Positions 39,855 to 54,326 of a stretch of 64,000 nucleotides of DNA are shown one piece after another. The DNA lies in the NCBI RefSeq assembly GCF_009914755.1, contig NC_060941.1; one strand, given 5' to 3'. Both the position numbers and the translations under genes were made by a program. The notes under the pieces are model-generated. The model was not told the DNA's origin, did no database searches, and saw nothing but the letters and a program-made list of their open reading frames with translations. Position 1 is the first letter of the stretch. Every line of letters starts with the position of its first letter. This stretch comes from the human T2T-CHM13v2.0 reference genome, Homo sapiens.

Positions 39855-40614
39855 GGGTGGGACGAGGGGAGGAGATGGCCTCTGCTGGAAGTGCAGGCAA
39901 ATGATCCCCCAGGAACAATGATGGGAGCTTCTGATTGCTCTCATTATCTCTGCAAAGTAGGAAGAAAGATTCATCAGCTGAGCATGAGGATGGTAGAAAA
40001 CATCTTTGGGAAATTTCAGAAGTGAAGGAAGGCATAAAATAGTCATCTAAAAAAAGCAGGAAAGGGAAAAGACAGAGAAATCCAGTATGAGTCCCAGGAC
40101 TCCAGGAAGCATCAGGACCCACTTGAAATTGCCAATGCTGAATTTAAAATGAGGCCAGTCTGTACAGAAGCACTTCTGGAATTTGCTAACAGCTAAATAG
40201 AGTAGAATCAATACTTTAGAGAATACGAGTAACCAAAGGAATAAAATTAACTGATCAACTTTTGTGGTTTTTACTATTAATATTTTCTTCAGTGTAAATC
40301 ATAGCTGCCTGAATTCCTGAACCCCTCTTATATAAATCTAAAAAGCTCTGGTTTATCATGGTTGAAAATTCATGGCTAACTTATCAGGCAAACTGTCCCT
40401 AAAGCATTTTTTGAATAGCTTTAGTATCAAGATGGTACTGAGTGTACATTTCATTTCCCTGCTTAAAGGAAGGCTTAGTTATTTTAAACCAAGTCTTATT
40501 TTTATAGCTATCATTTGTATATAGAAACACAATTTTTAAACAACTACCAGCAGCATAACTTGAACAAATATATAACAGAAGAGGAGGGAACCACAATTTG
40601 GGAACCACATAGTG

Positions 40615-40760
40615 AGACAGGGTCTCACTATGTTGCTCAGGCTGGACTCAAACTCCTAGGCTCAAAGGATCCCTCAGCATCGCAAGTAGCTGGGATTACA
40701 GGTACATGACACTGCCCTTGGCTCTGCTCTATTTTTATTATTTCCTTTCTTCTGCTACTT
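40615..40760 (-). repeat. 146-bp dispersed direct duplicate of 43895-44040 (FLAM monomer plus L1 flank)
   Basis: Ungapped hand alignment with 8 mismatches in 146 bp; includes the Alu/L1 junction of the source. Confidence 0.9.
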
Positions 40761-41461
40761 CTGCAAAGTAGTAGTAGAAATAGTAGTAGTCATAGTAGTA
40801 GTAGTGGTCGTTGTTTTCATCTTTGGTTCTTTCTGACTGTTGCCATTTCTGATTGGTTGTGCCCGTCCTCCTCCAGACAGTATTCAGTTCTCATCTGTTT
40901 TTCTAGGGCTGCTTCCTCAGATCATTCTCCTTATTAAAGAGCCCAATGTATTGGTTCACTTTTAATTCCTAACAAAAGCTTGGGTTTAAAACTCAATTAG
41001 AAAGGGGGAAAAATACGACCAATTTACAAAAGTGTCCATGGTTGTAATTATCTTAATGTGCTACCCTTTTCTTTGCATTATGCCTCAATTTTTAAAAAGT
41101 CCTTCATTCCTTCATTTTCCATTTCCTATCATTAATGGTGAAGGTTCAGGCATTCATGATTTCCAGGAAAGTGATTTGGAGAGAAGAAAATTAGGAGATT
41201 TGTCTAAAATATTTATATTTAAGGCAAGCCCAGATCTTACTATGATAGCTTTAAAATATAATAGCTATGTCTTTAAAATCTTCAAATATCTTTAAAATAT
41301 AATAGCATAAGTTTCTGAATAAAATAGTTGTTTTAGGATGAAAGAAAGCAAGAATGCTTCCCAGATTCTAGAAACATGGCATAAAGCTCAGATAATTATG
41401 CACTACTACTTTCTATTCAAAAGCTTTGTAGGCATCTATTTGAACCTTCTTGGAACACTAT

Positions 41462-42011
41462 TGTCAGAGGCGTATGAACCAGAGCAACTCCATCTTGAAT
41501 AGGGGATGGGTAAAATGAGGCGGAGACCTACTGAGCTACATTCCCAGGAGGTTAAGGCAGTCGAAGTCACAGAATGAGAGAGGAGGTAGGCACAAGATAC
41601 AGGTCATACAGACCTTGCTGATAAAACAAGTTGCAGTAAAGAAGCCAGCCAAAACCCACCAAAACCAAGATGGTGATAAGAGTGACCTCTGGTCGTCCTT
41701 GCTGCTACACTCCCACTGGCACCCTGACAGTTTACAAATGCCAAGGCAATGCCAGGAAGTTACCCTATATTGTCTAAAAAGGGGAGGCATGAATAATCCA
41801 CCCCTTGTTTAGCATGTAATCAAGAAATAACCATAAAAGTGGGCAACCAGCAACCCTAGGGGCTGCTCTGTCTATGGAGTAACCATTCTTTTATTCTTCT
41901 ATTTCCTTGATAAATTTGCTTTTACTTTGCGGACTTAACCCTGAATTCTTTCTTGCGCGAGATCCAAGAACCCTCTCTTGGGGTCTGGATGGAGTCCCCT
42001 TTCATGTAACA
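41462..42011 (+). mobile_element. MER41A solo LTR (ERV1), 550 bp
   Basis: TGTCAGAGGCGTATGAACCAGAGCAACTCCATCTTG...TGTAACA; 4-bp TSD CTAT. AAGGGGAGGCATGAATAATCC lacks the MER41B tandem-GAS insert. Confidence 0.92.
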
Positions 42012-42427
42012 CTATGAATCCAGTTATGGCCAGCCTGGTAAAACTCCGCACCATCCTACCAGCAAAAATATTTAGAAAATTTATAACAAATATTTGTATT
42101 TAATTTTAAATATTTACAAAACATTCAAACTTGAAAATAATCTGTATTTTACTTCAAAATAAATGTGCAAATTTGTAAAACAGTAAAATTCATGACTGCT
42201 GCCCTGGCTGTGATGAAGTAACTGCCACAGTAAACAATGAGAAAACTGGACAAAACAAAGGAGAAACTGTTTTAGGATATCAGGCAACAGGAAGCAGAGG
42301 ATTGTGACCCAAAGAGAAGGGAAACAAATGAGGTAAGCGCTCATTTAGTTGTTCTTTGATTTATTTAATTCTTCTCTGATTCTTTCATCAGAATTCTGTA
42401 GATTTCATCATATAAATCTCATACATA

Positions 42428-42582
42428 CAGATGGTTCTTGACACGCAATGGCATTTCACCCCGATAAATCTGTTGTAAGTACAAAGTATCTTAAGTAGAA
42501 GATGCATTTAATACCTCGATAAACCCATTGTAAAGTCAAAAAAATCATGAAGTTGAACCTTTGTAAGTCAGGGACAGTTATT
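42428..42582. mobile_element. MER47/Tigger5-like MITE nested in L1
   Basis: TA|CAGATGGTTCTTGAC..CCCGATAAA..GTAAGTCAGGGAC; same family as 18082-18220. Confidence 0.7.
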
Positions 42583-43854
42583 ATAGACGTATACCTAAGT
42601 AGTTAATTTTGGGGGTACTAATGTAAATAGTATTGTGTTTTTGGTTTAAAATTCCACTTATTCATTGCTGGTATAAATGAAAGCAGTTGATTTTTATTTA
42701 TTAACCTTGCATCCTGTAAACTTGCTATAATCACTTATCAGTTCCAAGAGTTTGTCGATTCTTTTGGATTCTCTATATAGACAATCACATCATCTGCAAA
42801 CAAAGAGAGTTCTATTTCTTCCTTTCCAATCTGTATACCTCTTATTTCCTTTTCTTGTGTATTGCATTAACTAAGATTTCTTTGATGTTAAAAAGGAGTG
42901 GTGAGAGGGGAATCACAATCAATGCCCTGTTTCTGATCTTAGAGAGAAAGCTTCTACTTTCTCACCATGAAGTTCAATGTTAGCTGTAGGTTTTTTGTAG
43001 ATGTTCTTTATCAAGTTGAGGAAGTTCACCTCTATTCCTAGTTTGCTGAGATTTTTTTTCATGAGTGGCTGCTGAATTTTATCAAATGATTTTTCTGCAT
43101 CTATTAATATGATCATATGATCACACAGATGCGATTGATTACATTTGCTGATTTTCAAATGTTGAGACAGCCCTGCATAACTGGGATACATTCCACTTGG
43201 CTCTGGTATATAATTCTTTTTGTACATTGTTAGATCAGTTTGCTAATATTTTGTTAAAGATTTTTTCATTTATGTTAATGGAATATAATGGTTAATAGAT
43301 TTTTTTTCTTATAATGCTTCTGTCTGGTTTTGGTATCAGGGTAATGCTGACCTCACAGGATGAGTTAGGAATTATTTCCTCTGTTTTTATCTTTTGAAAG
43401 AGATTGTAGAGGATTGGTATAATTTCTTCCTTAAAAGTTTGGCAGAATTTACCATTGAATCCATGTAGGCCTGGTGTATTCTGTTTTGGAAAAGGAGGGT
43501 CATTAATTATTGATTCGATTGCCTTAATAGATATATCCATTCAGATTATCTTTTTCTGCCTGTGCGAGTTTTGGCAGATTGTGTTTTTGGCAGATTGTGT
43601 CTAGGTTATCAAATCTATAAGCATATAATTGATCATAGTATTTATTTATAATACTTACAATACTCGTGGGCTCTTTAGTGATACCTCATTTTTCATTACT
43701 TTTATTAGATATTTATATTCTTTTTCTTTTTTTCTTAGTTTGCATGGCTAAAACCTATCAAATCTATTGATCTTTTCAAAGAACCAGCTTTTGGTTTCAT
43801 TGATTTTCTCTATTGATTTCCTGTTTTCAAGTTCATTGATTTCTGCTCTAATTC

Positions 43855-44002
43855 TTTTAAACTTTTTTTAAATTATTTTTATTTTTATTTTTAAAGACAG
43901 GGTCTCACTATGTTGCTCAGGCTGGATTCAAACTCCTAGGCACAAGGAATCCCTCAGCATCCCAAGTAGCTAGGATTACAGGTACATGACACTGCCTTTG
44001 GC
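43855..44002 (-). mobile_element. FLAM-type Alu monomer inserted in L1
   Basis: T-rich tail plus a single reverse monomer; TSD-like TCTGCTCTAATT / TCTGCCCTATTT. Confidence 0.85.
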
Positions 44003-46825
44003 TCTGCCCTATTTTTATTATTTCCTTTCTTCTGCTACTTTGGATTTAATTTGCTCTTCTTTTTCTTGTTTCCCAAATGAAAGCTTAGGCTATTGATTTT
44101 AGATATTTCTTCTTGTCTCATAAATGCATTCTATGTTATAAATTTCTCTTTAATCACTGCTTTCTCCCTATCACATAAATTTTGGTAAGTTCTGGTTTCA
44201 TTTAGTCCAAAATATTTTTAAATTTATATTGAGATTTCTTCTTTGACCCGTGTGATTTTTAAAGTGTGTTATATAATCCCAAAGTATTTGGGGATTTCCA
44301 CCTATCTTTCTGTTGATTTCTAGTTTAGTTCCATTGTGGTCTGAGATCAGATATTGTATGATTTCTACTCTTTTAAATTTGTTAAGATACGTTTTATGGC
44401 CCAGAATGTAGTCTATCTAGGGGAATGGTCCATGTGAGGTTGCAAAGAATGTGTATGCCGCTGCTGTTGGATGAAGTAGTCCAAGATATCCATTATTTCC
44501 AGTTGATTGATGGTGTTGTTGAATTCAACTATGTCCTTACTGATTTTTCTGCCTGCTGGATCTGTCCATTTATGATAGTGGGTATTAAAGTCTACAACTA
44601 TAATAGTAGATTCATCTATTTCTCCTTGAAGTTCTATCAGTTTTTGCCTCACATAGTTTTTGTTTGTTCGTTTTTGGTTTTTTTGCCTCACGTATTTTGA
44701 TGTTCTGTTAGGTACGTATACACCTGTTAAGGATTGATATGTCTTCCTGGATAATTAAACCCTTTATCATTATGTAATGGCTACCATATCCCTGATAATT
44801 TTTTGTCCTAAAGTCCACTGTATCTGAATTTAATATAACTACTAATTCTTTCTTCTGCTTAGTGTTAGTATGGTATATATTTTTTTTGATCCATTTACTT
44901 TAAACCTATATATGTCTTATATTTAAAGCAGGTTTCTTGGAGACAATATATAGTTGGGTCTTATTTTTTGATCCACTCTGACAATCTCTGCCTTTTAATT
45001 GGTATGTTTAGGCCATTGACATCCAAAGTGATTACTTGATATAGTTAGATCATAGCTACCATATTTGCTACTACTTTCTATTCATTGTCCTGGTTCAGTT
45101 TTCCTATTTTTGTCTTACACTGTTTTTCCTGCATTTTGTGGGTTTTAATTGAGCATATTCCATTTTCTCTCCATGCTTCTTTTTTAAAACATATTTTTTA
45201 CTGGTTGCCCTAGAGTTTATAATATATATTTATAAATAATCCAATTCCACTTTCAAATAACACTATATCATCTCATGGATAGTGGGAGTACCTTATATGA
45301 ATGAAATAATCCTAATTTACTCCTTGTTATTTTTTGTATTACTGCTGTCATTCATTTCACATATATGTAAGCTTATGTAAGTATATATGTCTGTATAAAT
45401 ATATATGAATATTGTTGCTGTTAATATTTTGAATAAACTGCTGTTAGGTCAATTATGAAGAAAAATAAAAGTTTTAATTTTATCTTCACTTATTCATTCT
45501 CTGATGCTCTATGTAGATCAAAGTTTCTTACCTATATCATTTTCATTTTATCTAAAAACTTCTTTTTAACATTTCTTGTGAGGCAGGTCTACTGGCAACA
45601 AACTCCCCCAATTTTTGTTTGTCTGAGAAAGTATTTCTCCTCCATTTTTGAAGAATAATTTTTCGAGGTACAGAATTCTAGATTCGTAGAGGTGTTTTCT
45701 CTCAACACTTGAGATTGTTCACTTCTCTCTCTTCACGCTTGCATGATTTCTTAGAAAACTGATGTAATTCTCACCTCTCCTTTTTATACGTAAGGTGTTT
45801 TTCTTTTCCCTCTGGCAGATTTCAATACTTTTTAAACATTTTTTATTTTCTGCATTTTGAATATGGTATGCCTAGGTGTGTAGCATGTTTTTTCTTTCAT
45901 TTATGCTGATTGGTGTTTTCTGAGCTTACAGATCTGTGGTTTGGTGTCTGACATTAATTTGGGGAAATTTTCAGTCTTTATTTCATTAAATATTTCTTCT
46001 GTTCCTTTCTCTCTTTCTTCCCCTTCCTTTATTCCCATATGTGTACATTACACCTTTTGTAGATGTCTCAACTACAAAAGATATTTTATTGTTTTTTTTC
46101 AGTCTTTTTTTTTCTCTTTGTTTTACAACTTTGGAAGTTTCTACTGAGATATCCTCAAGCTCAGATATTCTTTCTTCAGCTGTGTCCAGTCTACTGATGA
46201 GTCTATCACAGTCTTCATTTCTGTTAGGGTTTTTGATCTCTAGCATTTCTTTTTCATTCTTTCTTAGAATTTCCATCTCTCTGCTTACACTGCCCATCTC
46301 TTCTTGCATGCCATCTACTTTATCCATTAAAACCCTTAGCACATTAATCGTAGCTGTTTTAAATTCCTGGTCTGATAATTTTAAGATCTCTGTCATATAT
46401 GAGTCTGGTTCTGATGCTTGCTCTGTCTCTTCAAGCTGTGTTTTTTGCCTTTTTTGTATGCCTTGTAATTTTTTTTTCCTTATAGCTGGACATGATGTAT
46501 TGGGTATATGGAACTGCAGTGAAAAAGGCTTTAATCATGTGGTGGTAACGTGTTAGGGAAGAGGAAGTATTCTACAGTCCTATAACTAGGTCAGTCTTTT
46601 AGTAAGCCTGTGCCTCTGGGCTGTAAATGTCACGGTGCTTCTCAGTTTCTCCCCCTCCTAGCTCAACCAGGATGGTTCAAGAATGGAGGGATCTGGACTT
46701 GTGTATTTTCCATCCCCCATATAGAAGGCTAGAGTTGGCTGTAGGTGGTTATCTCCCTTCCCCCAGATTGGTTAGGCTCTGAAAAATCCCCAATAATTTA
46801 GGTGCTTGTAAAACCATTTTTCTTG

Positions 46826-47957
46826 GTATTTTGTTGCTGTTGGATACAAAGTTATATATAGCCCATTTTGTCTAAAGCACAATTCAATGTCAGTATTTCC
46901 CTTTTAATTTTCTGTCTCATTATCGGTCTGTTGTTGATGGGGGATATTGAAGTCCCCACTATTACTGTATTGCTATCTATTTCTCCCTTCATGTCCATTA
47001 ATATTTGCTTTATATATTTAGGTGCTCTAATGTCTAATGTCTAATGTGCTCTAATGTCTAATATATATTTACACTTGTTATATCCTCTTGATGAATGTCC
47101 TCTTTATCATTAGTGACTTTTTTTGTCTCTTATGAAAGTTTTTGACTTGATGTCTATTTTAAATCTAAATATGGCCACTTCTGTTCTCTTTTTTTTTTTA
47201 CCATTTGTGTGCAATAGCTTCTTCCATCCCTTCACTTTCAGCCTATGTATATCCTTAAGGCTAATGTGGGTCTCTCATAGGAAGCATATAATTGGATCTT
47301 GATTTTTTATTCATTAAACTACTCTGTGTCTTTGGATTGGAAAATTTAATCCATTTGTAATTATTGACATTTAAGGACTTACTACTGCTATGCTGTTTAT
47401 TGTCTCCTGGTTGTTTTGTATATCCTTTGTTCCTTTTTTCCTTTCTGATTTGCCTTCATGATTTGGTGATCTTCTATAGTGTTAGGTGTTTATTCTTTTT
47501 TCTTTATTTTTTTGTGTATCTGCTATAGTGTTTTGCTTTGTGGTTACCACAAGGCTTACGTAAAATGTCTTATAGTTATATAATAATTGACTATTTTACA
47601 CTAACAACTTAATTTTTTCCACATACAAAAACTCTAAACATTTATCCTCCACCCTGCTTGATCTAGTCTGCTGTTGAAGCTCTCTATTGCATTTTTAAAT
47701 TTCATTCATTGAATTCTTCAGGTCCAAGATTTCTGTTCGGTTCTTCGTTATGATACCTATCTCTGTTGAATTTCTCATTCAGATCATAAACTGATTGATA
47801 TCATCAAATTATCTCTCTATATTCTCTTGTAATTTTTTTGAGTTTCCTTTTCTTATTTTGAATTGCTTTACAAACAATTCATACATTTTCTTTTCTTTGG
47901 GGTCAGTTACTAAAGAATTATTGTGTTCTTTGGTAGTGTCATATTTCTTTCCTTTTT
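46826..47957 (-). repeat. Left arm of a 1.13-kb inverted repeat (derived copy of 48540-49678)
   Basis: Reverse complement of 48540-49678 with 8 substitutions and 3 small indel sites by hand alignment. Flanked by 32-bp direct repeats at 46797-46828 and 47956-47987. Confidence 0.96.
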
Positions 47958-48539
47958 TAGGTGCTTGTAAAACAGTTTTTCTTGGTAGGCTCTGTTAAGT
48001 GCAACAAAGTGCTCTGGTGTATTTCACAATGGTCACTTTTCTCCTTCCCCTGCCAGAAGCACAAATGATTTTTTTCTACAATATTCATGACGAGAACCTG
48101 GTCAAGCTCCTGGGGGCAAAACTCACAAAAGCCCAACACTGCTATGGCTGCTTGCAAGCCATGTTAGACCCAATACCAAGAGAGTTTCCCTCAGCTAAGA
48201 CTCTCCATTGTGGGGAACATTTAAACAGAAGGACCCCAAGAGCCTGTGCTACTGTGAACTCTCACAATATGTTGCTGCCACTGCTTCCCTAAACTCTTAT
48301 AGCCTATGGCACTGAGGTACCCACAGTCATCTGTGATACTGATCACAGCTGAAGAAGCTGCATGGAGGCTTGACCACTGCATCTATCCAGAAGCAGGGCC
48401 AGCACACCCTTTTCAACCAGCACATTAAGGTCTATCTGCAGATGAAAATATTTTCCTATGAAAGTAACTCTGTAAAGTTTGGAAGTGGTGACTGTTTCAT
48501 CAGATGTGAAGACACCAATTCAGAAACACAAGAAACATG

Positions 48540-49678
48540 AAAAAGGAAGGAAATATGACACCACCAAAGAACACAATAATTCTTTAGTAACTGACCCCAA
48601 AGAAAAGAAAATGTATGAATTGTTTGTAAAGCAATTCAAAATAAGAAAAGGAAACTCAAAAAAATTACAAGAGAATATAGAGAGACAATTTGATGATATC
48701 AATCAGTTTATGATCTGAATGAGAAATTCAACAGAGATAGGTATCATAACGAAGAACCGAACAGAAATCTTGGACCTGAAGAATTCAATGAATGAAATTT
48801 AAAAATGCAATAGAGAGCTTCAACAGCAGACTAGATCAAGCAGGGTGGAGGATAAATGTTTAGAGTTTTTGTATGTGGAAAAAATTAAGTTGTTATCAGT
48901 GTAAAATAGTCAATTATTATATAACTATAAGACATTTTACGTAAGCCTTGTGGTAACCACAAAGCAAAACACTATAGCAGATACACAAAAAAATAAAGAA
49001 AAAAGAATAAACACCTAACACTATAGAAGATCACCAAATCATGAAGGCAAATCAGAAAGGAAAAAAGGAACAAAGGATATACAAAACAACCAGGAGACAA
49101 TAAACAGCATAGCAGTAGTAAGTCCTTAAATGTCAATAATTACAAATGGATTAAATTTTCCAATCCAAAGACACAGAGTAGTTCAATGAACAAAAAATCA
49201 AGATCCAATTATATGCTTCCTATGAGAGACCCACATTAGCCTTAAGGATATACATAGGCTGAAAGTGAAGGGATGGAAGAAGCTATTGCACGCAAATGGT
49301 AAAAAAAAAAAAAAGAGAGAACAGAAGTGGCTATATTTAGATTTAAAATAGACATCAAGTCAAAAACTTTCATAAGAGACAAAAAAGTCACTAATGATAA
49401 AGAGGACATTCATCAAGAGGATATAACAAGTGTAAATATATATTAGACATTAGAGCACATTAGACATTAGACATTAGAGCACCTAAATATATAAAGCAAA
49501 TATTAATGGACATGAAGGGAGAAATAGATAGCAATACAGTAATAGTGGGGACTTCAATATCCCCCATCAACAACAGACCGATAATGAGACAGAAAATTAA
49601 AAGGGAAATACTGACATTGAATTGTGCTTTAGACAAAATGGGCTATATATAACTTTCTATCCAACAGCAACAAAATAC
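48540..49678 (+). repeat. Right arm (source) of the 1.13-kb inverted repeat
   Basis: Continuous with the surrounding plus-strand L1 on both sides. Confidence 0.96.
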
Positions 49679-50603
49679 ACATTCTCCTTTAGTGCACATG
49701 GAACATTCTCCAGTACAGACTACATGGTGGGCCATAAAACAAGTCTTAAATTTAAGAAGATCAAAATCATGTCAAGTATTATTTCTGGCCACAATGGTAT
49801 AAAATTAGAAATCAATAACAGAATTAACTTTGGAAAATTCACAAATATGTGGAAATTAAACAACTGGCTCTAAATAATCAATGGATCAAAGAAGAAATCA
49901 AAAGAAAAATTGAAAACGATCTTGAGACAAATGATAATGAAAACACAACATACCAAAACCTATGGGATGCCCAAAAGCATAAACGTCCCATAAGAGGAAA
50001 GTTTATAGCAACAAATGTCTACATTTAAAAAGAAGATCCCAAATAGCCTAACATTAAGCCTCACAGAATTAGAAAATGAACAAATTAAACCCAAAGTTAG
50101 CAGAAGGAAGGAAATTAATAAATATCAGAAAAGAAATAAATAGAGAATAGAAAAACCACAGGAAAAAAACAATAAAACTAAGAGTTGGTTTTTGAAAAAA
50201 TGAACAAAATTGATAAACTCTTAGTTATACCAGCTTAAAAAAAGAAAGAGAAGATTCAAATATATAAACTCAGATATGAAAGTGGAGACATTACAAAAGA
50301 TGTTCTCAGAAACAAAATAGATCATAAGGAACTATTATTAACAATTATATGTCAACATAGTTGATCATCTAGGGTAAACAGATTAATTCCTAGGAAAATA
50401 TAACTGAAGAAGGTTGAATAAAAAAGAAATAGCTTGAACAGGCCAATAAAAAATGAAGAGATTGAAGTAGTAATTTAAAATCTCCCCAAGAAAGAAAAGC
50501 CCAAAACCAGATGTCTTCATGGCTGAATTCTACCAAACTTTCAAAAAAGAATTAATACCAACACTTCTTAAATACTTCCAAAATAAAAAAGAGCTGGATA
50601 ATA

Positions 50604-51044
50604 CAGCTGACCCTTGAACAACATGGAGGTTAGTGGTGCTGACCACCCCCCAAATGCAGTCAAAAATCTGCATGTAACATTTGACTACCCCAAAACTTAA
50701 CTACTAATAGCCAACTGTTGACTGGAAGCCTTACTGATAACATGAACAATCAATTAACACATATTTTATATATTACATTTATCCTACACTTTATTTTTAC
50801 AGTAAAGTAAGCTAGAGAAAACAAAATGTTATAAAAATAATAAAGAAGAGAAAATATATTTAATATTCATTAAGTGGGAAGTGGATCATCCTAAAGGTCT
50901 TCATCCGTGACATCTTGATGTTGAGTAGGCTGAGAAGAAGGAAAAGGAGTTGGTCTTGCTGTCTCAGGGGTGGCAGAGGCAGAAGAAAATCTGCAGATAA
51001 GTAGACCCATGCAGTTCAAACCTGTGTCGTTCAAGGGTCAACAC
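50604..51044. mobile_element. Tigger2a (MER28) MITE nested in L1 ORF2
   Basis: TA|CAGCTGACCCTTGAACAAC ... GTTCAAGGGTCAAC..|TA, about 440 bp. Confidence 0.88.
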
Positions 51045-53538: not shown

Positions 53539-54326
53539 GAAATAATTCAATAAAAGGTAGGAAAAGAGGAGAAAGAAACAAATATAAAAGAAATAGCAAA
53601 ATGGTAGATTAAAACCTAACAATATCAATAACTATGTTAAATATAAGTAGCCTAAAAATTCCAACTAATCGGCAAAGCTTATCACTGTGTTTTTTAAAAA
53701 AAGTTTAACTACATGGTGCTTTCACGATAAATGCTTAAAAATCTTTTAAAAAAGGTTAAGATTAAAAGGATGACAAAAGATGTACCATGCAAACAGTAAT
53801 CATAAGAAAAGTGGAGTCAACATATGAATATCAAACAAAGTGGATTCCAGAACAAAGAAGCTGCTCTGTATCTCTGTAGAGATACAGAGGGGCATTTCAC
53901 AATGATAAAAATTGAATTCATGAAAATGATCTAACAATCCTAAATATGTATGTACCTAATTTTAAGGGCTTCAAAATACATGAAACAAAACCTGACAGAA
54001 ATGAAAGGATAAATAGGCAAATTCACAAATGACAACTGAAGATAATTCAAAACTCCTTTCACAGGAATTGATAGGACAAGTAGACCGTATTAGTGAGGAT
54101 ATAGATAATTCAAAAACTGCTATCAACCTACTTGACCATTAATCAAGATAGACCATATTCTGGGCCATAAAATAAATTTCAGTAAATTAAAAAGGATTGA
54201 TCTCATACAGAGTAAATGCTCTGACCATAAAGAAATTAAATTAGAAATCCATAACAGAAATTTATCTTAATTTTTGTAAAGTAAAAGATAGACATATACT
54301 AATATTAGAGTCAAAGAAAGAATCAT

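What the first reader, a model, noticed from the sequence alone, without database searches (positions are those of the whole stretch)
46826..49678. Predicted >1.1-kb near-perfect dsRNA hairpin of L1 sequence in CEP112 pre-mRNA
Seen: two ~99% complementary arms separated by only 582 nt, both inside a CEP112 intron. Established: inverted Alu pairs give ~300-bp imperfect stems, while long near-perfect duplexes are preferred substrates for ADAR1 hyper-editing, Dicer, PKR and MDA5. Inference: each transcript through this intron could fold into a stem about four times the length of an inverted-Alu stem. It could be an editing hotspot, a source of L1-derived small RNAs, or an immunogenic self-dsRNA when splicing or ADAR1 fails. 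Short reads multi-map between the arms, so such signal could easily be missed. This is my best candidate for an undescribed functional element, but function is unproven.
Basis: inference. Interest (0 to 1): 0.72.

Follow-up and report, generated by a model that had tools for sequence, protein, structure and literature searches.

The report
Kilobase inverted L1 duplication in CEP112
A 1.1-kb piece of an ancient L1 element was copied backwards into a spot about 0.6 kb away inside a CEP112 intron, so the intron RNA should fold into a very long, near-perfect hairpin; this kind of structure is already catalogued and nothing here shows a selected function.

Summary
Arms 46826-47957 and 48540-49678 align over 1,140 columns with 8 mismatches and 3 small indels (98.5%), and the spacer is 582 nt. 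The other 68 inverted pairs of 200 bp or more in the window are Alu-sized and at most 87% identical. The arms are ancient L1: apart from the two arms, every genomic match reported from the 40 candidates scored is at most 73% identical. So this is a local duplication, not two young L1 insertions. The right arm is the source, because it is collinear with the rest of its L1 on both sides. The left arm is an inserted reverse-complement copy. It interrupts the 5' part of a second, head-to-head L1 and is flanked by a 29-bp target duplication. It has no poly(A) and shows 2-3 nt microhomologies. That fits template switching (FoSTeS/MMBIR type). Arm divergence suggests an age of about 2-7 million years. 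The CEP112-sense RNA folds with 1,127 arm-to-arm pairs at -2,100 kcal/mol. Long, highly paired hairpins between inverted LINEs are a catalogued class (PMC11838218). No function is shown. Small RNAs from the arms would not match young L1. Verdict: a new member of a known kind.

The parts
46800..46828 (.). Left copy of the 29-bp target duplication. Its last 3 nt (46826-46828) are microhomology shared with the end of the source segment.
   Evidence: 27 of 29 identical to 47958-47986. Positions 46814-46815 differ and are the derived state relative to 5 paralogous copies.
46829..47957 (-). Left arm: the inserted reverse-complement copy of 48540-49678 (ancient L1, antisense on the + strand).
   Evidence: alignment. 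ORF2 aa 19-186 at 47370-46855 on the - strand; paralogs of the flanking repeat lack it (empty site).
47958..47986 (.). Right copy of the 29-bp target duplication. It carries the ancestral state at the two variable positions.
47958..48131 (-). Loop part A: the 5' terminal stretch of a second ancient L1 oriented on the - strand. It continues 46105-46828 across the insertion.
   Evidence: in L021, L023 and L026 the window pieces ending at 46822-46825 and starting at 47958-47964 map to overlapping subject coordinates. In L022, L024 and L027 they map to adjacent coordinates. ORF1-like similarity sits next to this repeat in the window (46252-46091, - strand) and in 2 of 8 paralogs.
48134..48539 (+). 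Loop part B: the 5' part of the source L1 (+ orientation), not duplicated.
   Evidence: matches start at query positions of about 165-358 and run to 582. Among them are C5:137077944-137078296 and C3:54434293-54434699, which lie in the same L1 copies that match the arm.
48540..49678 (+). Right arm: the source segment, in its native place inside the + oriented ancient L1.
   Evidence: It is collinear with other L1 copies across its inner border: C5 ...942 and ...944 are adjacent (coordinates worked out). A single ORF2 HSP, 49547-50272, spans the outer border.
49679..50272 (+). Continuation of the source L1 (ORF2 up to at least aa 400 of the query), outside the duplicated segment.

Best explanation
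This is a local, DNA-level inverted duplication that happens to build a kilobase-long RNA hairpin. Two ancient L1 elements lie head to head, with their 5' ends meeting at about 48131/48134. About 2-7 million years ago, an internal 1,139-bp segment of the + oriented L1 (48540-49678) was copied as its reverse complement. The copy went into the 5' part of the - oriented L1, 582 bp from the source. The most likely route is two template switches. A growing + strand left its template after 46828. It re-primed on the complementary strand at 49678 through a 3-nt microhomology and copied back to 48540. It then returned through a 2-nt microhomology to a point 29 nt upstream of where it had left. That return duplicated the 29 bp (FoSTeS/MMBIR, or a very large template-switch mutation). 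Shown: the insertion, its source, the 29-bp duplication, the microhomologies and the absence of a poly(A) tail. Inferred: the replicative mechanism and the age. Consequence (inferred, with folding computed): each CEP112 pre-mRNA through this intron transcribes the right arm first and the left arm 0.6-1.7 kb later, and it should snap into a stem of about 1.13 kb. In the nucleus such a stem is expected to be heavily A-to-I edited by ADAR enzymes and destroyed with the excised intron. I regard it as a tolerated by-product, not a selected element. It would matter only if the intron is retained, the lariat persists, or ADAR1 is lacking.
For: Structure. Local origin: only the two arms are 99-100% alike in the whole assembly, and the other reported matches from the 40 scored candidates (7,260 in the first look) are at most 73% identical. 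Direction of copying: the right arm is collinear with other L1 copies at both borders. The left arm interrupts another repeat: 6 of the 8 paralogous copies fetched match both flanks, at overlapping or adjacent coordinates, so the 29 bp is single-copy there. The other 2 (L020, L025) match the left flank only. Junctions: there is no A/T tail beyond one extra T, no TT/AAAA-like nick site, and 3-nt and 2-nt microhomologies. Error-prone copying: 3 of 8 substitutions lie within 25 nt of a junction (binomial P = 0.004, post hoc), and there is a derived dinucleotide change in the left copy of the duplication. Polarisation with 6 old L1 copies puts the derived state in the copy at 5 sites and in the source at 1, with 2 ambiguous. 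BIR/MMBIR is described as error-prone in PMC4352052 (Discussion passages). Template switching as a maker of reverse-complement repeats and RNA hairpins is described in PMC8794818 (passages). Hairpin. Class already known and mostly neutral or unedited: PMC11838218 section 10 and PMC7006430 Results part 1.
Against: No orthologous empty site (ape or other human haplotype) could be examined. The insertion is inferred from paralogous repeat copies that are only about 65-76% identical. Two of the 8 paralogs (L020, L025) matched only the left flank. The junction-clustering test was devised after seeing the data, and the 5:1 polarity is not significant (two-sided binomial about 0.2, my own arithmetic). 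Template-switch mutations documented in the passages I read are tens of bases long (largest 59 bp, PMC8794818), so a 1.1-kb copy lies at the far end of that scale. A DNA template cannot be told from an RNA template using sequence alone. Arm-to-arm gene conversion could make the event older than the estimate; the 2 differences in 29 bp of the direct repeat are much higher than the 0.7% in the arms. Nothing here shows that the hairpin forms, is edited, or is harmless in vivo.
Confidence: 0.75

Rival explanations
1. RNA-templated copy. A stretch of nascent CEP112 pre-mRNA, whose sequence equals the + strand of the left arm, served as template for repair of a break 0.6 kb downstream in the same intron. 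The reverse transcriptase would be L1 ORF2p or Pol theta, acting endonuclease-independently, which would also give an inverted copy without a classical L1 nick site.
For: The + strand of the left arm has the polarity of the CEP112 transcript across the right arm (orientation plus the hub annotation). A 29-bp target duplication is within the range seen for L1-mediated insertions (recalled). The nascent RNA would be physically close to the break.
Against: There is no poly(A), no TT/AAAA-type site, and internal start and end points on the RNA. Priming would need the - strand 3' end to anneal internally to the RNA with only about 2 nt of homology. Nothing in the sequence requires an RNA step.
Confidence: 0.08
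2. A selected functional element. On this reading the hairpin is kept because it does something: it acts as a nuclear ADAR sink or editing hotspot that tunes CEP112 splicing, or as a testis hairpin-RNA locus giving endo-siRNAs, or as a sentinel dsRNA for innate immunity.
For: The stem is exceptionally long and well paired. CEP112 matters in spermiogenesis and Cep112 mRNA is higher in mouse testis than in other tissues (PMC11443074, passage). Very long near-perfect genic dsRNAs are rare (PMC11838218).
Against: Arm divergence is what neutral decay over a few million years would give. There is no Rfam family in 45500-51000; the single sub-threshold hit lies outside the arms. The arm is about 62% identical to young L1, with a longest exact match of 15 nt, so there is no obvious trans target. 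It sits deep in an intron, 13.5 kb and 7.2 kb from the nearest annotated exons. Three searches found no paper linking CEP112 with dsRNA or RNA editing. The literature read argues such structures are selected against rather than for (PMC7006430).
Confidence: 0.05
3. Two independent insertions of a young L1 in opposite orientation, or one L1 insertion with a 5' inversion by twin priming.
For: Young L1 copies are 98-99% alike, and 5'-truncated or inverted copies are common (recalled).
Against: The arms are about 62% identical to three young L1 loci and at most 73% identical to every other genomic match reported. The homology ends at the same L1 positions in both arms. There is no poly(A) at either arm. 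The target duplication flanks the left arm alone. 582 nt separate the arms, of which 174 nt belong to a different element.
Confidence: 0.01
4. Assembly artefact (a fold-back chimera) in the T2T-CHM13 sequence.
For: Palindromic artefacts are known from long-read libraries (recalled).
Against: The arms differ at 8 substitutions and 3 indels. They are separated by a 582-nt spacer that is collinear with paralogous repeats on both sides. The insert carries a 29-bp target duplication. None of this is expected of a chimera.
Confidence: 0.01

Closest known systems
Long, highly paired intramolecular dsRNAs between inverted LINE elements (dsRNAscan catalogue, PMC11838218; inverted duplicated sequences of Barak et al. 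2020, PMC7006430)
   Same: More than 300 bp, more than 96% paired, arms of LINE origin, within one transcription unit and removed with the intron. Discussed there as putative MDA5/ADAR substrates.
   Different: Here the arms are not two similar L1 insertions but one ancient L1 segment and its recent local copy. At about 1.13 kb it is well above the 300-bp threshold.
Inverted Alu pairs (IRAlu), the main ADAR1 substrates and MDA5 ligands in human cells
   Same: An intramolecular stem made from two inverted retroelement copies in non-coding parts of a Pol II transcript.
   Different: The Alu-sized pairs in this window are about 256-318 bp long and at most 87% identical. This stem is about four times longer at 98.5%, with perfect Watson-Crick runs of 284, 270 and 209 bp.
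Template-switch mutations and FoSTeS/MMBIR inverted duplications (PMC8794818, PMC10710096, PMC2621351, PMC4352052)
   Same: A reverse-complement copy of nearby sequence, defined by four switch points. Short microhomologies at the junctions, extra point changes near the junctions, and a perfect hairpin created in one step.
   Different: The template-switch events in the passages I read are tens of bases long (largest 59 bp), and the MMBIR cases are usually kilobase-to-megabase pathogenic rearrangements. This is an intermediate, 1.1-kb event in the T2T-CHM13 sequence; its frequency in humans was not checked here.
Hairpin-RNA (hpRNA) endo-siRNA loci of Drosophila and mouse oocytes (recalled, not searched here)
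   Same: A long inverted duplication transcribed as one RNA that folds back on itself.
   Different: There is no small-RNA evidence here and no recognisable trans target. Human somatic Dicer is a poor processor of long dsRNA (recalled).
L1 5' inversion by twin priming (recalled)
   Same: Head-to-head L1 segments.
   Different: Twin priming does not duplicate a kilobase of L1. It leaves a poly(A) tail and a target duplication around the whole insert. None of that is seen here.

Membership tests
Long, highly paired intramolecular dsRNA (criteria of PMC11838218: >300 bp and >96% of nucleotides paired) | Stem longer than 300 bp | tested here: met
   1,127 arm-to-arm pairs on the CEP112-sense strand, 1,130 on the + strand.
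Long, highly paired intramolecular dsRNA (criteria of PMC11838218: >300 bp and >96% of nucleotides paired) | More than 96% of nucleotides paired | tested here: met
   98.5% identity over 1,140 columns; 1,127 pairs for arms of 1,129 and 1,139 nt.
Long, highly paired intramolecular dsRNA (criteria of PMC11838218: >300 bp and >96% of nucleotides paired) | Both arms on one transcript that is actually made | not testable with these tools
   Both arms lie inside the CEP112 span and between annotated exons according to the hub's table. No RNA data are available here.
ADAR-edited / MDA5-PKR-sensed endogenous dsRNA | Clustered A-to-G changes in RNA, or sensor binding | not testable with these tools
   No RNA-seq or editing database was available. 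Searches for CEP112 with dsRNA or with RNA editing found nothing relevant.
Template-switch (FoSTeS/MMBIR/TSM) inverted duplication | Insert is the reverse complement of nearby sequence on the same chromosome | tested here: met
   the source lies 582 bp away and is the only other copy at 99% or more in the assembly.
Template-switch (FoSTeS/MMBIR/TSM) inverted duplication | Microhomology of a few bases at both junctions, no long homology | tested here: met
   3 nt at 46826-46828 and about 2 nt in the T-run at 47956-47957. The junctions are not at homologous L1 positions of the two elements.
Template-switch (FoSTeS/MMBIR/TSM) inverted duplication | Ancestral state without the insert | tested here: inconclusive
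   6 of 8 paralogous repeat copies run through the site at overlapping or adjacent coordinates. The orthologous empty site (apes, other humans) could not be examined.
Template-switch (FoSTeS/MMBIR/TSM) inverted duplication | Extra point changes close to the junctions | tested here: inconclusive
   3 of 8 substitutions lie within 25 nt of a junction (P = 0.004, post hoc), plus a derived dinucleotide change in the left duplicated 29-mer. Of those 3 substitutions, 2 are derived in the copy and 1 is ambiguous.
L1 retrotransposition (TPRT), including twin priming | Poly(A) tail at the 3' end of the insert | tested here: not met
   there is no A or T run beyond what the source itself has, apart from one extra T.
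L1 retrotransposition (TPRT), including twin priming | Target duplication starting at a TT/AAAA-like endonuclease site | tested here: not met
   a 29-bp duplication is present, but neither border reads as such a site on either strand (motif recalled).
L1 retrotransposition (TPRT), including twin priming | Insert resembles a family active at the time of insertion | tested here: not met
   at most 73% identity to all other reported copies and about 62% to young L1, against 98.5% to the neighbouring source.
hpRNA / endo-siRNA locus | Dicer-sized small RNAs from the stem, and targets with near-perfect complementarity | tested here: inconclusive
   Small RNAs are not testable here. Targets: the longest exact match is 15 nt to 3 young L1 loci and 18-27 nt to 6 old copies. 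No Rfam miRNA was found.

The most novel reading that the evidence does not exclude
The duplication could be hominin-specific; divergence of the interior sites gives about 2-5 million years. It would then be one of very few kilobase-long, near-perfect dsRNAs made inside a human protein-coding gene. Because CEP112 is transcribed strongly in spermatids, it could be a major single-locus ADAR substrate there. It could also be a potent MDA5/PKR ligand whenever the intron is retained, the lariat is not debranched, or ADAR1 is lost. On this reading it is a human-lineage self-dsRNA born in one replication error.
Probability: 0.1. Interest if true: 0.6.

Novelty: new member of a known kind. Interest (0 to 1): 0.3.

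Why it matters
If the hairpin forms in vivo, it is a clean natural test case. It offers a single, unique-in-genome stem of 1.1 kb with 781 adenosines on the CEP112-sense strand. The arms can be told apart by 11 fixed differences, so reads need not multi-map if mismatches are used. That makes it useful for measuring how ADAR, Dicer, PKR and MDA5 treat a very long intronic duplex in human cells, and for asking whether intron retention or debranching defects expose it. On the DNA side, it documents a kilobase-scale template-switch event with a target duplication and junction-proximal changes. It lies between the tens-of-bases template-switch mutations and the large pathogenic MMBIR rearrangements. 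It also shows that near-perfect L1 hairpins can arise from very old L1 sequence. Otherwise it is ordinary: one more tolerated intronic inverted repeat.

Tried and rejected
1. Pfam on 7 short translated pieces in or beside the right arm and along its L1: no credible family; best E 0.04, below cut-off. L1 identity was shown instead by tblastn with open frames from a young L1 locus.

2. PF08333 as a search family: not in the library.

3. Rfam at E <= 1 over 45500-51000: only a sub-threshold SNORD26-like hit at 50243-50307, 20.8 bits against a gathering score of 44, outside the arms.

4. Two young L1 insertions, or twin priming: rejected.

5. An A-to-I editing footprint in the copy, as a sign of an edited RNA intermediate: not seen. 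At the 5 substitutions polarised as derived in the copy, the changes read on the + strand are G>C, A>G, C>T, G>A and C>T, which is not a one-directional A>G pattern.

6. Uneven spacing of the differences as a sign of gene-conversion tracts: the top three perfect runs sum to 763 of 1,129 nt, simulation P = 0.087, not significant.

7. Homology-mediated switching between the two head-to-head L1s: rejected. The junctions fall in non-homologous parts, the 5' region of one L1 and ORF2 of the other.

10. Own-genome search of 40500-44100, to explain a nearby 146-bp direct repeat: dominated by an unrelated repeat of about 550 bp, with no explanation.
Full report
**1.

- The repeat finder gives three collinear inverted blocks between 46826-47962 and 48535-49678.
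- BLAST of the region against its own reverse complement joins them into one alignment, 46826-47957 against 49678-48540. It has 1,140 columns, 8 mismatches and 3 gap openings, which is 98.5%.
- A local alignment lists the differences:
  - substitutions at 46847, 47173, 47208, 47309, 47316, 47811, 47935 and 47948;
  - a 1-nt and a 5-nt indel in T-runs, at 47118 and 47188/9;
  - a 3-nt indel at 47601/2 (sequence context).
- The perfect Watson-Crick runs between differences are 18, 270, 54, 14, 19, 100, 6, 284, 209, 123, 12 and 9 nt.
- The whole 64-kb window holds 69 inverted pairs of 200 bp or more. The other 68 are about 256-318 bp long and at most 87.1% identical, the size expected of Alu pairs. 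This repeat is therefore a clear outlier.

**2. What the arms are**

- Seven short translated pieces in or beside the right arm and along its L1 gave no credible Pfam match.
- I then took a young L1 locus from the same assembly (L009, found with PF02994) and used its two long open frames unchanged as tblastn queries.
- The first 400 aa of ORF2 hit the left arm on the - strand (47370-46855, aa 19-186). They hit the right arm on the + strand (49145-49300 and 49479-49649). One HSP, 49547-50272 (aa 152-400), runs across the outer end of the right arm.
- So the arms are L1 sequence, antisense on the left and sense on the right.
- The L1 is very old. In the whole assembly only the two arms match at 99-100%. 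The other reported matches from the 40 scored candidates (7,260 in the first look) are 69-78% identical, and those longer than 170 bp are at most 73%.
- Against three young L1 loci the arm is about 62% identical over about 650 nt.
- Two arms at 98.5% in a family whose members are otherwise about 30% apart cannot be independent insertions. One arm is a recent copy of the other.

**3. Which arm is the copy, and how it got there**

The right arm sits in its native context.
- The 406 nt to its left (48134-48539) match the same L1 copies elsewhere that match the arm.
- On contig C5 the two matches abut...942 and ...944, coordinates worked out.
- To its right, ORF2 simply continues.

The left arm is an insertion.
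- The sequence to its left (46105-46828) and the first 174 nt to its right (47958-48131) belong to one ancient repeat.
- I fetched 8 paralogous copies of that repeat.
- In L021, L023 and L026 the two window pieces map to overlapping subject coordinates. For example, in L023 window 46824 maps to subject 1087 and window 47958 maps to subject 1062.
- In L022, L024 and L027 the pieces map to adjacent coordinates.
- L020 and L025 matched the left piece only.
- The overlap is the 29-mer 46800-46828. It recurs at 47958-47986 with 27 of 29 identical.
- So the left arm carries a 29-bp target duplication.

That repeat is most likely the 5' part of a second ancient L1 on the - strand.
- L1 ORF1-like similarity lies just beyond it in the window (46252-46091, - strand), followed by ORF2 (45035-43754, - strand).
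- ORF1-like similarity sits in the same relative place in 2 of the 8 paralogs.
- The two old L1s therefore lie head to head, meeting at about 48131/48134. They are only about 73% alike where they can be aligned.

The junctions point away from retrotransposition.
- There is no A or T tail. The inner end has six Ts where the source has five.
- Neither border of the duplication looks like an L1 endonuclease site (motif recalled).
- The copy starts and ends at internal L1 positions.
- Three bases (46826-46828) are shared between the end of the left 29-mer and the sequence next to the source's outer end.
- About two Ts are shared at the inner junction.

This is the pattern of two template switches. 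A growing + strand leaves after 46828 and re-primes on the complementary strand at 49678. It copies back to 48540, then returns 29 nt upstream of its point of departure.
- Template switching that writes reverse-complement copies and creates hairpins in one step is described in PMC8794818 (passages). The largest event mentioned there is 59 bp.
- The MMBIR model is PMC2621351 (search listing and abstract only).

**4. Signs of error-prone copying, and the age**

- I polarised the 8 substitutions against six old L1 copies (L003-L008). These were the only outgroups fetched, and just two of them cover the last three sites.
  - The copy is derived at 5 sites: 46847, 47173, 47208, 47811 and 47948.
  - The source is derived at 1 site: 47309.
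  - Two sites are ambiguous: 47316 and 47935.
  - A 5:1 split is not significant on its own.
- Three of the 8 substitutions lie within 25 nt of a junction (binomial P = 0.004). This test was chosen after seeing the data.
- The two adjacent differences between the 29-mers are derived in the left copy, 13-14 nt from the junction, as judged from 5 paralogs.
- BIR/MMBIR is described as error-prone, with point mutations acquired at the rearrangement, in PMC4352052 (Discussion passages).
- Divergence gives 3.5-7.1 million years from all 8 substitutions, and 2.3-4.6 million years from the 5 interior ones. The rates used, 0.5-1.0e-9 per site per year, are recalled.
- Arm-to-arm gene conversion would make this an underestimate. 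The spacing of the differences is not significantly uneven (P = 0.087).

**5. What it does**

- CEP112 is on the - strand, so the right arm is transcribed first.
- ViennaRNA folds the 2,853-nt CEP112-sense RNA at -2,099.5 kcal/mol, with 1,127 arm-to-arm pairs and a longest uninterrupted helix of 395 bp. Four of the 8 mismatches become G-U pairs on this strand, by my reading.
- The + strand folds at -2,079.9 kcal/mol with 1,130 pairs.
- No other sequence scored in the genome search comes close enough to compete for pairing.
- The duplex holds 527 + 254 adenosines on the CEP112-sense strand.
- The nearest annotated exons are 13.5 kb downstream (33329) and 7.2 kb upstream (56872) in the sense of transcription, according to the hub table. 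The hairpin would therefore exist for minutes before the intron is removed (inference).
- From established knowledge (recalled), such a stem should be promiscuously edited by ADAR1 and ADAR2 in the nucleus and degraded with the intron.
- That it reaches cytoplasmic MDA5 or PKR only when splicing, debranching or ADAR1 fails is an inference. It is in line with PMC11838218 section 10, PMC7006430 Results part 1 and the abstract of PMC13189227 (listing only).

**6. Comparison with what is known**

- PMC11838218 predicted 5,134,754 dsRNAs in the human genome. Of these, 2,018 are both longer than 300 bp and more than 96% paired.
  - Most of the 2,018 lie between inverted LINEs.
  - 88% are intergenic and 74% are unedited (section 10 read).
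- PMC7006430 counts long near-perfect inverted duplicates in the pre-mRNAs of 49 species. It argues they are purged from mRNA but tolerated in introns (Results part 1 read).
- This locus meets the criteria of that class, so as a dsRNA it is a new member of a known kind.
- I could not check whether it is already listed.
- Full-text searches returned only unrelated papers or none:
  - CEP112 with dsRNA: 2 unrelated papers;
  - CEP112 with RNA editing: 1 unrelated paper;
  - 'inverted L1' with dsRNA and ADAR1: none.
- Rfam has nothing in the arms.
- The idea of L1-silencing small RNAs is weak. The longest exact match to three young L1 loci is 15 nt, and to six old copies it is 18-27 nt.
- Cep112 mRNA is higher in mouse testis than in other tissues (PMC11443074, passage in section 7). 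Testis is therefore the sensible tissue for a test.

**7. Verdict**

- The structure is real and unusually long and well paired.
- Its origin can be read from the sequence: a kilobase-scale templated inverted duplication of ancient L1 sequence, with a 29-bp target duplication.
- Its effect as an intronic dsRNA is plausible but untested.
- Nothing indicates selection for a function.
- Interest is moderate to low. The most useful follow-up is the ape and pangenome comparison, followed by a look at nuclear RNA for editing.

Noticed in passing
window 40615-40760 and 43895-44040: A 146-bp direct repeat at 94.5% identity (8 mismatches, no gaps), 3.28 kb apart. It is the only direct pair of 93% or more and 100 bp or more in the window. 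The right copy lies inside the ORF2 part of the - oriented old L1. An own-genome search of 40500-44100 was dominated by an unrelated repeat of about 550 bp (window about 41459-42014, 85-88% identical copies) and did not explain it. It could be another local duplication or a long target duplication.
   Followed up: partly
window about 47650-47654 (left arm), equivalent to about 48845 (right arm): In the three old L1 copies that match on both sides of this point (L003, L005, L008), the matched parts are separated by about 850-880 bp that both arms lack. The source L1 therefore already had an internal deletion, probably most of ORF1, before it was duplicated.
   Followed up: partly
window 43754-48131 (- strand) and 48134-50272 and beyond (+ strand): Two ancient L1 elements lie head to head, with their 5' ends only about 2 nt apart at 48131/48134. 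They are about 73% identical where alignable (44170-44475 against 49655-49968), so they are separate insertions. The exact abutment of two 5' ends is unexplained.
   Followed up: partly
window 50243-50307 (+): A sub-threshold SNORD26-like match: 20.8 bits against a gathering score of 44, E 0.73. It is most likely chance.
   Followed up: no
window 53753-54267 (+): A further L1 ORF2 N-terminal similarity (aa 61-251 of the query), so there is a third L1 fragment downstream of the source L1.
   Followed up: no
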